Below, piece by piece: positions 2,403-4,241 of a stretch of DNA of 4,241 nt; the first letter of the stretch is position 1; every line of letters starts with the position of its first letter. Source of the stretch: Qubevirus faecium; the sequence record FJ539132.1; one strand, written 5' to 3'. A program made the position numbers and the translations under genes. The notes beneath the pieces are model-generated. The model made no database searches and was not told where the DNA came from. It saw only the letters and a program-made list of their open reading frames with translations.

Positions 2403-2422
2403 TAGCATGTCTAAGACAGCTA
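2403..2422 (+). promoter_or_regulatory. Coat-protein translational operator hairpin covering the replicase start codon (8-bp stem, bulged A2407, 3-nt loop UAA 2412-2414)
   Basis: Seen: UAGC-A-UGUC (2403-2411) pairs with GACAGCUA (2415-2422); the unpaired bulge A is the A of the AUG at 2407-2409. Recalled: the Qbeta operator has the same 8-bp stem, bulged A and 3-nt loop, and coat dimers bind it to repress replicase translation. Confidence 0.75.
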
Positions 2423-4137
2423 GTCACAGAAAGAAAATTACTCACCTATTGAGTAAGGTCGACATCGACTTCGAAGACGACATCCATATGTCTATCGCCA
2501 ATGATCTTTTTAAGGCCTTTGGCGTTGCACCACTTACGTCAGCGGAGCAGTGTATCAACACTCCGTTCCCTGACACTTCGATGACTGCTGATGCATTTCG
2601 CATCGCGTATCTGCGGTCAGAGATCCTTAGTAAGTATAGTGCGCACCCTCTCGGTATTGATACCGAAGCAGTAGCTTGGGAGAAGTTCCTAGCTGCTGAA
2701 GAGGGCTGTAGACAAACGAACGAACGACTGTCGCAGGCTAAGTACCATGACAATTCCATTTTGTCATGGGGCGAGCGTGTTATCCACACTGCTCGTCGAA
2801 AAATACTTAAGCTTATAGGCGAGTCTGTTCCGCTCGGGGATGTGGCGCTGCGCTGCCGATTTTCTGGCGGCGCGACGACCTCGGTTAACCGTTTACACGG
2901 CCACCCGTCGTGGAAGCATGCCTGTCCGCAGGATGTTACCAAACGCGCATTCAAATACCTACAAGCGTATAAAATGGCTTGTGGTGACATCGTAGACTTA
3001 CGTGTCAATGAGGTGCGCACTTCGAATAAAGCAGTCACTGTTCCAAAGAACAGTAAGACCGATCGTTGCATTGCCATCGAACCCGGATGGAATATGTTTT
3101 TCCAACTGGGTGTCGGTGCGGTGCTACGCGATAGGTTGCGCCTTTGGGGGATTGACCTTAATGATCAATCCATCAATCAGCGCCTCGCACGCGATGCGTC
3201 ACAGCTTGACCATTTGGCCACTGTTGACTTATCCGCAGCAAGTGATTCAATCAGCCTTAAGCTGGTGGAGTTACTACTACCGCCTGACTGGTTTGGCGTC
3301 CTGACCGATCTCCGATCGGATCAGGGTATCCTACCTGATGGGCGTGCCGTTACCTACGAGAAAATATCCTCCATGGGTAATGGCTACACTTTCGAGCTTG
3401 AGTCGCTCATATTTGCAGCGATCGCTCGGAGTGTGTGCGAGTTACTGGATCTTGACCAATCAACTGTCAGCGTGTACGGAGATGATATAATCATCGATTC
3501 CCGTGCTGCTGCAACCCTTATGGATGTGTTCGAGTACGTTGGGTTCACCCCTAACAGAAAGAAGACCTTTGTAAGTGGTCCCTTTAGAGAGTCGTGCGGA
3601 AAGCACTGGCACTCTGGGGTTGATGTAACGCCTTTTTACATACGCCGCCCAATACGTTGCCTAGTCGACATGATACTTGTTCTGAATAGTATCTATCGGT
3701 GGGGCACGATTGACGGCGTATGGGATCCTAGGGTGCTGCCCGTATACCAGAAGTACGTGAATATGCTGCCGAGAAATTGGCGGCGTAACACGATACCTGA
3801 TGGTTACGGAGACGGCGCTCTCGTCGGATTGGCTACAACGAATCCGTTTGTTATAGTCAAGAATTTCTCGAGACTATACCCGGTATTAGTTGAAGTCCAG
3901 AAGGACGTCAAGCGTCACGAGTACGGCAGTTATTTATATGCCATGCTACGCGACCGCGAGACACGTTACAATCCCTTCCTGCGTGTCGCAGATGGGACTG
4001 GGTTTGATGAAGCACCGCTAGCTACTAGCCTTCGTCGCAAGACAGGTCGGTACAAAGTGGCGTGGATTCAGGACAGTGCCTTCATCCGGCCCCCGTATTT
4101 TCTTACGGGACTTCCCGAGGTGAAGCTTGCTAGCTAG
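2407..4137 (+). CDS. RNA-dependent RNA polymerase, replicase beta subunit (576 aa)
   Basis: Seen: ATG 2407 with SD, TAG stop at 4135-4137; palm motifs in frame: motif A TVDLSAASDSI (3220-3252), motif B SSMGNGYTFELESLIF (3367-3414), motif C YGDD (3475-3486). Recalled: N-terminus MSKTAS and many blocks (GIDTEAVAWEKFLAAE, CRFSGGATT, NKAVTVPKNSKTDRCIAIEPGWNMFFQLG, YEKISSMGNGYTFELESLIFA, FRESCGKH, TIDGVWDPR, IPDGYGDGALVG) match Qbeta replicase. Confidence 0.96.
   Translation: MSKTASHRKKITHLLSKVDIDFEDDIHMSIANDLFKAFGVAPLTSAEQCINTPFPDTSMTADAFRIAYLRSEILSKYSAHPLGIDTEAVAWEKFLAAEEGCRQTNERLSQAKYHDNSILSWGERVIHTARRKILKLIGESVPLGDVALRCRFSGGATTSVNRLHGHPSWKHACPQDVTKRAFKYLQAYKMACGDIVDLRVNEVRTSNKAVTVPKNSKTDRCIAIEPGWNMFFQLGVGAVLRDRLRLWGIDLNDQSINQRLARDASQLDHLATVDLSAASDSISLKLVELLLPPDWFGVLTDLRSDQGILPDGRAVTYEKISSMGNGYTFELESLIFAAIARSVCELLDLDQSTVSVYGDDIIIDSRAAATLMDVFEYVGFTPNRKKTFVSGPFRESCGKHWHSGVDVTPFYIRRPIRCLVDMILVLNSIYRWGTIDGVWDPRVLPVYQKYVNMLPRNWRRNTIPDGYGDGALVGLATTNPFVIVKNFSRLYPVLVEVQKDVKRHEYGSYLYAMLRDRETRYNPFLRVADGTGFDEAPLATSLRRKTGRYKVAWIQDSAFIRPPYFLTGLPEVKLAS
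3475..3486 (+). other. RdRp catalytic motif C (YGDD) within the replicase
   Basis: Seen: TAC GGA GAT GAT in the replicase frame (codon offset 356 from ATG 2407). Established: YGDD is the catalytic motif of levivirus replicases. Confidence 0.9.
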
Positions 4138-4148
4138 ACACTAGCTAG
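4130..4148 (+). other. Perfect hairpin over the replicase stop codon: two copies of the self-complementary octamer CUAGCUAG separated by ACA
   Basis: Seen: CTAGCTAG at 4130-4137 and again at 4141-4148 with loop ACA (4138-4140), giving an 8-bp perfect stem; the replicase UAG (4135-4137) is in the 5' arm. Confidence 0.6.
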
Positions 4149-4241
4149 TAATGGGAAGGGGCTCATTTGAGGCCCCGGAAGGAGAAAGAAAGAAAACTCC
4201 CTCCTGAGAGGGTGGGCTCTGCTTTGCCCTCTCTCCTCCCA
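4138..4241 (+). promoter_or_regulatory. 3' untranslated region with hairpins (for example 4158-4176 GGGGCU...GGCCCC; 4199-4212 CCCUC/GAGGG) and terminal ...CUCUCCUCCCA
   Basis: Seen: stem-loops as listed; pyrimidine-rich tail ending CCCA. Recalled: Qbeta RNA ends ...GCUUUGCCCUCUCUCCUCCCA, almost identical to 4221-4241. Established: replicase initiates opposite the 3' CCC, and the terminal A is added non-templated. Confidence 0.75.

What the first reader, a model, noticed from the sequence alone, without database searches (positions are those of the whole stretch)
4129..4148. Tandem self-complementary CUAGCUAG octamers form a perfect hairpin over the replicase stop codon
CUAGCUAG ACA CUAGCUAG can fold into an 8-bp stem with a 3-nt loop. 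Because each octamer is itself palindromic, the same element could also pair between molecules or in alternative registers. The replicase UAG lies in the 5' arm. A perfect structure at the coding/3'-UTR boundary is unlikely to be chance in a genome this size and may be part of the 3' domain that governs replicase access or minus-strand initiation. I do not recall this exact motif from Qbeta, so it may be lineage-specific.
Basis: seen in the sequence. Interest (0 to 1): 0.45.

Follow-up and report, generated by a model that had tools for sequence, protein, structure and literature searches.

The report
Known R1 hairpin at replicase stop
The perfect hairpin over the replicase stop codon is real and conserved, but it is this phage's version of the already described "R1" hairpin that starts the 3'-terminal domain of Qbeta-like RNA phages. 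Its eye-catching repeated palindrome is a side effect of one base pair that varies between strains.

Summary
The window is a complete group IV Qbeta-like phage genome (Qubevirus faecium; its replicase is 100% identical to ACT66752.1). The motif exists at 4130-4148, one base later than reported. It reads CUAGCUAG-ACA-CUAGCUAG, with the replicase UAG at 4135-4137 in the 5' arm. The stem extends to 11 bp (4127-4137 with 4141-4151), -13.0 kcal/mol, and has pair probability of about 1.0 in every context folded.

A perfect 8-bp hairpin alone is weak evidence: 0.41 are expected per shuffled genome. The strong evidence is covariation. In 8 distinct group IV sequences 98.9% of pairs are kept and 3 pairs change on both sides. 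Across groups III and IV, 10 of 11 pairs change on both sides.

The hairpin abuts the strand (4152-4156) that pairs with the 3'-terminal UCCCA. This is the published architecture: terminal replicase hairpin R1 followed by ld IX. In Qbeta, R1 binds an internal coat-protein dimer. Deleting or scrambling it gives non-infectious particles that lack the maturation protein.

The octamer palindromes occur only in this strain and one metagenomic contig. Relatives have A-U or G-C at pair 4131/4147. The palindromes give no extra predicted dimerisation and no alternative register.

Verdict: already known, ordinary, low interest.

The parts
2407..4137 (+). Replicase (beta subunit) coding sequence. Its last codons, CUU GCU AGC UAG (L A S stop), form the 5' arm of the hairpin.
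   Evidence: ORF list. 100% identical to ACT66752.1. Homologous CDS are annotated in relatives.
4127..4137 (+). 5' arm of hairpin R1 (UUGCUAGCUAG). It is coding and includes the first CUAGCUAG octamer (4130-4137).
   Evidence: (I2).
4135..4137 (+). Replicase UAG stop codon, in the three apical pairs of the 5' arm.
4138..4140 (+). Triloop ACA. C and A are invariant in group IV; the first base is G in SP.
4141..4151 (+). 3' arm of R1 (CUAGCUAGUAA). It is non-coding and includes the second CUAGCUAG octamer (4141-4148). It carries the compensatory changes that follow wobble changes in the 5' arm.
4152..4156 (+). 5' strand of the terminal long-distance helix (ld IX), UGGGA. It starts with no spacer after R1.
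   Evidence: MFE and consensus folds. Pair probabilities reach 0.99. In Qbeta the equivalent is 4124-4129 (PMC8880383).
4237..4241 (+). 3' strand of ld IX: the 3'-terminal UCCCA of the genome.
   Evidence: helix 2, 98.8% paired.
4158..4176 (+). First hairpin inside the 3' domain (U2-type).
   Evidence: Consensus fold with compensatory changes (columns 41-59, helix 3).
4177..4204 (+). Second hairpin inside the 3' domain (V-type), with the A-rich loop GAAAGAAAGAAAA.
   Evidence: columns 60-87, helix 4.
4208..4235 (+). 3'-terminal hairpin U1, with the conserved loop UCUGCUUUG.
   Evidence: columns 91-118, helix 5. Conserved UGCUU loop: PMC3561173.
3028..3034 (+). AAAGCAG, complementary to CUGCUUU (4219-4225) in the U1 loop. 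It is the likely counterpart of the Qbeta long-range pseudoknot about 1200 nt upstream. This is inferred and is not part of the hairpin itself.
   Evidence: The Qbeta pseudoknot is described in PMC3561173.

Best explanation
The element is this genome's copy of hairpin R1, the terminal replicase hairpin. R1 is the first helix of the conserved 3'-terminal domain of Qbeta-like phages (genus Qubevirus).

Shown here:
- An 11-bp stem with an ACA triloop lies at 4127-4151.
- It ends exactly where the strand UGGGA (4152-4156) begins. That strand pairs with the 3'-terminal UCCCA (4237-4241) to form ld IX, which encloses three further hairpins.
- The 5' arm is coding (L-A-S-stop) and the 3' arm is untranslated. 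When wobble positions 4128 and 4131, or codon position 4132, change between strains, the non-coding partner (4150, 4147, 4146) changes to keep the pair.
- The repeated CUAGCUAG palindrome arises because the conserved core AGCUAG/CUAGCU happens to be flanked by a U-A pair at 4131/4147 in this strain.

Inferred from Qbeta:
- R1 acts as a structural and packaging element of the five-way junction at the 3' end.
- Its apical loop binds a coat-protein dimer. The group IV version has the three-nucleotide loop ending in A on a long stem, which is what Qbeta-type coat protein recognises.
- An intact R1 is needed for the maturation protein to be incorporated, and therefore for infectivity.
- By stacking on ld IX, R1 probably also helps keep the 3' terminus folded.
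For: Identity and structure:
- The window is a group IV Qubevirus.
- The hairpin MFE is -13.0 kcal/mol, z = -4.0.
- R1 pair probabilities are 0.95-1.0 for all but the outermost pair (0.72-0.73) in 300-, 800- and 1800-nt contexts.
- The MFE of the last 142 nt gives R1, then ld IX, then three hairpins.
- RNAalifold on 7 group IV genomes gives the same structure.

Covariation:
- Group IV: 8 distinct sequences, 98.9% paired. Pairs 4128/4150 (UA, UG, CG), 4131/4147 (GC, AU, UA) and 4132/4146 (AU, CG) change on both sides. Slid controls reach at most 40% paired.
- Qbeta group: 98.2% paired, 2 pairs with double changes.
- Model-fitted alignment of groups III and IV: 10 of 11 R1 pairs change on both sides, 98.3% paired.
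- G.U and U.G variants at three positions, and a weaker minus-strand fold (-10.1 kcal/mol), point to the plus strand.

Homology:
- The group IV 3'-domain model hits the Qbeta, M11 and MX1 3' domains over the full length at E of 1e-8 to 1e-10.
- In both groups the hairpin ends directly before UGGGA.

Literature:
- Qbeta R1 binds the internal coat-protein dimer. The last six nt pair with 4124-4129 next to R1. R1 deletion or scrambling gives non-infectious particles without A2 (PMC8880383).
- Qbeta coat protein needs a three-nt loop and a four-bp upper stem, and contacts the +8 A (PMC11724954).
- The window's own replicase operator has the same architecture as the Qbeta operator, including the UAA triloop and bulged A.
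Against: - No experiment on any group IV phage shows that R1 binds coat protein or that an internal coat-protein dimer exists there. Chang et al. call the internal dimer 'unique to Qbeta', in a comparison with MS2.
- The Qbeta R1 loop is drawn as 5 nt (UACAC), not as a triloop.
- An NNA triloop on a stem of at least 4 bp is a loose motif that occurs often by chance.
- The Qbeta R1 mutants were assayed from plasmids, so a replication defect was not separated from the packaging defect.
- The four apical pairs never vary in group IV, so they give no covariation evidence. Their constancy may simply reflect the Ser/Arg codon and the UAG stop.
Confidence: 0.85

Rival explanations
1. This is the first reader's reading: R1 is mainly a replication control element. 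By stacking on ld IX it would help sequester the 3'-terminal CCA. A ribosome terminating at the UAG in its 5' arm would melt R1, loosen ld IX, and so couple the end of replicase translation to replicase access for minus-strand initiation. It could be an additional function rather than an exclusive one.
For: - There is no spacer between R1 and the ld IX strand in groups III and IV.
- The stop codon lies inside R1 in groups III and IV.
- The 3' arm ends 14 nt after the UAG, within the reach of a terminating ribosome (inference from the sequence).
- The Qbeta R1 mutant assays did not separate replication from packaging (PMC8880383).
Against: - The stop codon has no fixed place in the hairpin. It is at the apex of the 5' arm in group IV and in the 3' arm in Qbeta and M11. 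It is at the loop/3'-arm junction in MX1 and 33 nt downstream of the usual UAG position in the FI reference.
- In more distant relatives the hairpin next to the UGG(G)AG strand lies entirely downstream of the stop codon.
- The replication determinants reported for Qbeta are the M-site and the U1-loop pseudoknot (PMC3561173; PMC10610835), not R1.
Confidence: 0.25
2. The two palindromic CUAGCUAG octamers would be a functional feature in their own right. They could let two genomes pair, or let the element adopt alternative registers.
For: Each octamer is self-complementary and the two arms are identical. RNAcofold predicts an extended homodimer 4.7 kcal/mol more stable than two hairpins.
Against: - The same -4.7 kcal/mol gain is predicted for HB-P24, NL95, BR1 and FI-like hairpins, which lack the octamer palindrome. 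It is a generic property of the perfect ACA-loop hairpins.
- The 12 lowest-energy suboptimal structures, spanning 4.6 kcal/mol, are all frayed versions of the same stem.
- The palindrome is found only in the window and L114. It is produced by one covarying pair.
- The palindromes are buried in the stem and the loop ACA is not self-complementary.
- Eight-nt palindromes are at the chance level genome-wide.
Confidence: 0.03
3. R1 would alternate with pairing to the invariant upstream sequence CUAGCUACUAG (4018-4028), forming a long-range switch.
For: - A 7-nt perfect complement links 4018-4024 and 4142-4148, and there is a 16-nt, 75% complementary pair (I7, I1).
- The upstream element is invariant in all 10 group IV sequences. 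It lies immediately upstream of one of the two most conserved 60-nt stretches of the genome, 4034-4093.
Against: - R1 pair probability is about 1.0 in every context folded. The upstream element pairs locally instead.
- The complementarity shrinks to 6 nt in HB-P24, NL95 and BR1. In FI-like genomes and the Qbeta group it is 5 nt at unrelated places.
- CUAG and AGCU are palindromes, so short matches of this kind are expected.
Confidence: 0.04
4. The element is a chance hairpin without function.
For: One perfect 8-bp hairpin is not rare: 0.41 are expected per shuffled genome, and 28.5% of shuffles have at least one.
Against: Compensatory changes occur at 3 pairs within group IV and at 10 of 11 pairs across the genus, with 98-99% of pairs kept against at most 55% in slid controls. 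The position next to ld IX is conserved.
Confidence: 0.01

Closest known systems
Hairpin R1 ('terminal replicase hairpin') of the 3'-terminal domain of Qbeta and SP. It comes from the Beekwilder-van Duin secondary-structure model, as used by Rumnieks & Tars 2012 (PMC3561173) and Chang et al. 2022 (PMC8880383).
   Same: [quoted passage not shown]
- It has an 11-bp stem.
- It ends directly at the 5' strand of ld IX, which pairs with the 3'-terminal (C)UCCCA.
- Three or four further hairpins follow, including U1 with the UGCUU loop.
- The pairing is maintained by compensatory changes.
- ACA is present in the loop (Qbeta UACAC, group IV ACA).
   Different: - The arms have a different sequence.
- The loop is a 3-nt triloop instead of the 5-nt loop drawn for Qbeta.
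- The stop codon is UAG at the apex of the 5' arm, instead of UAA in the 3' arm.
- Group IV lacks the two basal G-C pairs of Qbeta and has two more apical pairs.
- In this strain the arms happen to be palindromic octamers.
Qbeta-type coat-protein translational operator, at the start of the replicase gene (here about 2398-2420).
   Same: Both are a stem-loop with a three-nucleotide loop whose last base is A, on an upper stem of at least four base pairs. In Qbeta virions R1 is listed among the 'operator-like' stem-loops and binds a coat-protein dimer (PMC8880383).
   Different: - R1 has no bulged A.
- The loop is ACA rather than UAA.
- The stem is 11 bp rather than 8 bp.
- It does not control translation initiation.
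- Binding by group IV coat protein has not been tested.
Palindromic dimerisation hairpins such as the retroviral DIS kissing loop.
   Same: Self-complementary sequence within a hairpin.
   Different: In a DIS the palindrome is exposed in the loop. Here the palindromes form the stem and the loop (ACA) is not self-complementary. The palindromy is not conserved among relatives.

Membership tests
R1 terminal replicase hairpin of the Qubevirus 3' domain | [quoted passage not shown] | tested here: met
   The ORF ends at 4137, inside the 5' arm 4127-4137.
R1 terminal replicase hairpin of the Qubevirus 3' domain | It lies immediately 5' of the strand that pairs with the 3' terminus (ld IX). | tested here: met
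   4152-4156 UGGGA pairs with 4237-4241 UCCCA, with no spacer after 4151. The arrangement is the same in Qbeta, where the strand is 4124-4129.
R1 terminal replicase hairpin of the Qubevirus 3' domain | The pairing is conserved through compensatory changes among relatives. | tested here: met
   98.9% paired with 3 double-change pairs in group IV. 98.2% with 2 in the Qbeta group. 10 of 11 pairs across both groups in a model-fitted alignment.
R1 terminal replicase hairpin of the Qubevirus 3' domain | The surrounding 3' domain is homologous to that of Qbeta. | tested here: met
   A covariance model of the group IV domain matches Qbeta, M11 and MX1 over positions 1-124 of 124 at E of 1e-8 to 1e-10.
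R1 terminal replicase hairpin of the Qubevirus 3' domain | It binds an internal coat-protein dimer and is required for maturation-protein incorporation and infectivity (shown for Qbeta). | not testable with these tools
   Known only for Qbeta (PMC8880383). No group IV data were found.
Qbeta-type coat-protein operator-like hairpin | Three-nucleotide loop. | tested here: met
   The loop is ACA, 4138-4140. The requirement is stated in PMC11724954.
Qbeta-type coat-protein operator-like hairpin | Adenine at the 3' loop position (+8). | tested here: met
   A4140 is invariant in group IV. The +8 A contact is described in PMC11724954.
Qbeta-type coat-protein operator-like hairpin | Upper stem of at least four base pairs. 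| tested here: met
   11 contiguous pairs.
Qbeta-type coat-protein operator-like hairpin | Bulged A in the 5' strand of the stem. From my own recollection of the binding studies, it is present in the natural operator but reported as non-essential. | tested here: not met
   R1 has no bulge. The window's true operator has one.
Qbeta-type coat-protein operator-like hairpin | Measured binding of coat-protein dimer. | not testable with these tools
   This needs EMSA or filter binding, or cryo-EM.
Kissing-loop or dimerisation hairpin | Self-complementary sequence exposed in the loop and conserved. | tested here: not met
   The loop ACA is not palindromic. The palindromes are in the stem and occur only in the window and L114.
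Any curated Rfam family | Match to a covariance model. | tested here: not met
   No match at E of 1 or below over the whole window. The element is described in papers but has no Rfam family.

The most novel reading that the evidence does not exclude
In group IV phages, R1 could be a true high-affinity coat-protein site: a perfect 11-bp stem capped by an invariant N-C-A triloop. Because the replicase UAG sits in its apical pairs, each terminating ribosome would strip or block that site and transiently open ld IX. The last round of replicase translation would then time the switch of a genome from template to packaging substrate. A second, even less likely variant is that the invariant upstream CUAGCUACUAG (4018-4028), which adjoins a stretch with unusually conserved synonymous sites, competes with R1 as part of this switch.
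Probability: 0.07. Interest if true: 0.45.

Novelty: already known. Interest (0 to 1): 0.12.

Why it matters
Little new follows from this finding. It confirms that a deposited group IV strain carries the canonical R1 hairpin and 3' domain.

The case is a clean illustration of how an RNA virus keeps a structure that straddles a coding boundary. Synonymous wobble changes in the coding arm (GCU, GCG, GCA; CUU, CUC) are tracked by changes in the untranslated arm.

One modest practical point follows. The group IV version of R1, a perfect stem with an NNA triloop, fits the Qbeta coat-protein recognition rules better than the Qbeta R1 does. That makes SP/FI-type phages a good system for testing whether the internal coat-protein dimer seen in Qbeta virions is a general feature of the genus. 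It would also help separate the packaging role of R1 from any replication role.

Tried and rejected
- **Rfam scan of the whole window at E of 1 or below:** no family matched.
- **IMG/VR scan with the replicase:** only phage FI was close. The other 79 loci were about 36-45% identical and were used only marginally.
- **Metagenome scan** with TTCCCGAGGTGAAG N{24,30} TGGGAARGG: 0 hits.
- **More relatives:** obtained instead through the protein database, cluster members and encoding contigs.
- **MAFFT alignment of groups III and IV together (A1):** it put the 3' arms out of register by one column, so it was not used for pair counts. Separate alignments (A2, A3) and a model-fitted alignment (A7) were used.
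- **Cui et al. 2017 (PNAS):** not held under its DOI or PMC id. Beekwilder et al. 1995 is cited only through other papers.
- **First shuffle script:** timed out and was rewritten.
- **Readings rejected:**
  - Dimerisation or alternative registers through the octamer palindromes.
  - A switch with upstream 4018-4028.
  - A stop-codon-specific function, because the stop position floats.
  - A chance hairpin.
- **Distant relatives (48-57% replicase identity):** a hairpin also abuts the UGG(G)AG strand, but a separate hairpin sits at the stop codon. I do not claim one-to-one homology with R1 there.
Full report
**What the window is.** The 4241-nt window is a complete genome of a group IV Qbeta-like phage (Qubevirus faecium, the SP/NL95/FI lineage).
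- It has the usual four products: maturation protein 52-1374, coat protein to 1793 with read-through to 2387, and replicase 2407-4137.
- Its nearest records in the phage collection are FI strain HB-P24 (83.8% identity), NL95 and SP.
- Its replicase is 100% identical to GenBank protein ACT66752.1, which sits on a 4241-nt record. The window is therefore a deposited isolate that is simply absent from the local phage collection.

**Checking the observation.**
- The sequence reads c4130-tagctag-4137, aca 4138-4140, ctagctag 4141-4148. The 19-nt motif is at 4130-4148; the finding's start is one base early.
- The replicase stop UAG is 4135-4137, in the 5' arm, as stated.
- The complementarity runs further: UUGCUAGCUAG (4127-4137) pairs with CUAGCUAGUAA (4141-4151). 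That is eleven contiguous pairs including one G.U (I2).
- The 25-mer folds at -13.0 kcal/mol, z = -4.0.
- In 300-, 800- and 1800-nt contexts, the pair probabilities are 0.95-1.0 for all but the outermost pair.

As a statistical oddity, the hairpin alone is weak.
- Dinucleotide shuffles of the genome give 0.41 perfect 8-bp hairpins on average, and 28.5% have at least one. The window has four.
- For at least 11 contiguous pairs, the expectation is 0.67, and the window has about six distinct examples.
- Eight-nt palindromes are at chance level: 19 observed against 16.7 expected.

The genome as a whole is rich in hairpins. This one hairpin needs comparative evidence.

**Comparative evidence.** I collected the 3' ends of the following relatives:
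- HB-P24, NL95, SP, BR1, BR8 and FI.
- Four group IV contigs from public assemblies.
- Eleven Qbeta, M11 and MX1 group genomes.
- Several more distant allolevivirus-like contigs.

Within group IV the hairpin is always present and the variable positions covary:
- Pair 4131/4147 is U-A in the window and in Logan contig L114. It is G-C in HB-P24 and FI-like genomes, and A-U in NL95, SP and BR1.
- Pair 4132/4146 is A-U, or C-G in FI-like genomes.
- Pair 4128/4150 is U-A, U-G, or C-G in SP.

In 8 distinct sequences 98.9% of cells are paired, and three pairs change on both sides. Sliding the partner by 1-3 columns leaves at most 40% paired. Positions 4128 and 4131 are third codon positions (CUU/CUC Leu; GCU/GCG/GCA Ala). 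Synonymous drift in the coding arm is thus followed by compensating changes in the untranslated arm.

The Qbeta group has a hairpin of the same size at the same place, GGUUGCGUCUC-UACAC-GAGGCGUAACC. It is 98.2% paired, with two double-change pairs.

A covariance model built from the group IV 3' domain finds the Qbeta, M11 and MX1 domains over their full length at E of about 1e-8 to 1e-10. In the resulting alignment, 10 of the 11 hairpin pairs show changes on both sides, with 98.3% pairing. That alignment is fitted to the model, which favours the structure. G.U and U.G variants at three positions, and the weaker fold of the complementary strand (-10.1 kcal/mol), indicate that the plus strand is the one under selection.

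**What it is.** The hairpin ends at 4151. The next five bases, UGGGA (4152-4156), pair with the last five bases of the genome, UCCCA (4237-4241). That helix encloses three hairpins at 4158-4176, 4177-4204 (A-rich loop) and 4208-4235 (loop UCUGCUUUG).

This is the published 3'-terminal domain of these phages.
- Rumnieks and Tars describe the long-distance interaction ld IX, which bridges the 3' terminus with an upstream stretch. They also describe hairpins U1, U2 and V, and the 'terminal replicase hairpin R1'. They note that the SP 3' UTR closely resembles that of Qbeta (PMC3561173).
[quoted passage not shown] In the Qbeta record, UGGGAG starts at 4124, directly after the hairpin.

The finding is therefore hairpin R1. 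It is not lineage-specific, although its arm sequences differ from those of Qbeta. Rfam has no family for it.

**The palindromic octamers.** The conserved core of the group IV stem is AGCUAG/CUAGCU, which already contains the small palindromes AGCU and CUAG. With U-A at pair 4131/4147, each arm becomes CUAGCUAG. With A-U or G-C, as in all other strains except L114, it does not.
- The predicted homodimer advantage is -4.7 kcal/mol for the window. It is exactly the same for HB-P24, NL95, BR1 and FI-like hairpins.
- The 12 lowest-energy suboptimal structures, spanning 4.6 kcal/mol, are all frayed versions of the same stem.
- The palindromes are in the stem, not the loop.

I therefore treat the tandem palindrome as incidental.

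**The stop codon.** Its position relative to the hairpin is not conserved:

| Lineage | Position of the replicase stop codon |
|---|---|
| Group IV | Apex of the 5' arm |
| Qbeta and M11 | 3' arm |
| MX1 | Loop/3'-arm junction |
| FI reference | 33 nt downstream of the usual UAG position; UAG is AAG there, though three FI-like contigs keep UAG |
| More distant relatives | Upstream of the hairpin that abuts the UGG(G)AG strand, which lies wholly in the 3' UTR |

This argues against a function tied to termination as such.

**How it most likely works.**
- Shown: a conserved, covarying stem that stacks against ld IX at the base of the 3' domain.
- Inferred from Qbeta: in the virion this domain is a five-way junction. 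U1 binds the maturation protein, U2 binds a capsid coat-protein dimer, and the R1 loop binds an internal coat-protein dimer.
- Also from Qbeta: deleting R1, or scrambling it while keeping the coding, gives particles that lack A2 and are non-infectious (PMC8880383).
- Qbeta coat protein needs a three-nucleotide loop on a four-bp upper stem and contacts the +8 adenine (PMC11724954).
- Group IV R1 has an N-C-A triloop with an invariant terminal A on a perfect stem. The window's own replicase operator has the same architecture as the Qbeta operator.
- Loops ending in A recur in the equivalent hairpins of relatives: ACA, GCA, AAA, UAA, CAA, AUA. These come from single-sequence folds and the lineages are not independent.

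I therefore take R1 here to be a packaging and scaffolding element that probably binds a coat-protein dimer and supports attachment of the maturation protein. A secondary effect on keeping the 3' end folded is likely. A direct role in replicase access remains possible, because the Qbeta mutants did not separate replication from packaging, but nothing here favours it.

**Verdict.** The structure is real and selected. The element is the already described R1 hairpin of the Qubevirus 3' domain. The feature that drew attention, the tandem palindromic octamers, is a strain-level accident. Interest is low.

Noticed in passing
window 4011-4100 (peak 4034-4093): The last ~120 nt of the replicase gene upstream of R1 are unusually conserved across 11 group IV genomes. 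In 4034-4093, 92% of columns are invariant against 59.5% genome-wide, the second highest 60-nt window. Third codon positions are 63% invariant against 29% for the whole gene. This implies an RNA-level constraint, either structure or a binding site. There is too little variation to test pairing.
   Followed up: partly
window 4017-4029: A small hairpin-like element, GCUAG-CUA-CUAGC, is 85% identical as a direct repeat to the apex of R1 (GCUAG-ACA-CUAGC). Its core CUAGCUACUAG is invariant in all group IV sequences (D1). Its predicted pair probability is only 0.28-0.75, depending on context. Its complementarity to the R1 arms is not conserved in FI-like or Qbeta-group genomes.
   Followed up: partly
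window 3028-3034 and 4219-4225: AAAGCAG is complementary to CUGCUUU in the loop of the 3'-terminal hairpin U1, about 1190 nt downstream. This matches the position and kind of the long-range pseudoknot reported as essential for Qbeta replication (PMC3561173). Covariation was not tested.
   Followed up: partly
L006 (phage FI reference EF068134) 4095-4128, equivalent to window 4135-4137: The FI reference has AAG where all other group IV genomes have the replicase UAG. This breaks one R1 pair (A.A) and extends the ORF by 11 codons, to a UGA in the next hairpin (586 aa against 575 aa). Three independent FI-like contigs (L099, L113, L118) keep UAG. It is probably a private mutation or a sequencing error in the reference.
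   Followed up: partly
L114 (Logan SRR24138264) 4114-4138: A metagenome-assembled genome carries exactly the same CUAGCUAG-ACA-CUAGCUAG hairpin as the window. The variant therefore circulates outside the single isolate.
   Followed up: no
window 2875-2934: This is the most conserved 60-nt stretch of the genome across group IV, with 93% invariant columns. It lies in the replicase gene, within the region equivalent to the one annotated in SP as 'replicase binding region m'. It was not examined further.
   Followed up: no
L100, L103, L107, L108, L110 (distant allolevivirus-like contigs), 3' UTRs: In relatives with 48-57% replicase identity, a hairpin again sits with no spacer before a UGG(G)AG stretch. 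Several have three-nucleotide loops ending in A (CAA, AUA, ACA). A separate hairpin sits at the replicase stop codon. These contigs lack the extreme 3' end, so ld IX could not be checked.
   Followed up: partly
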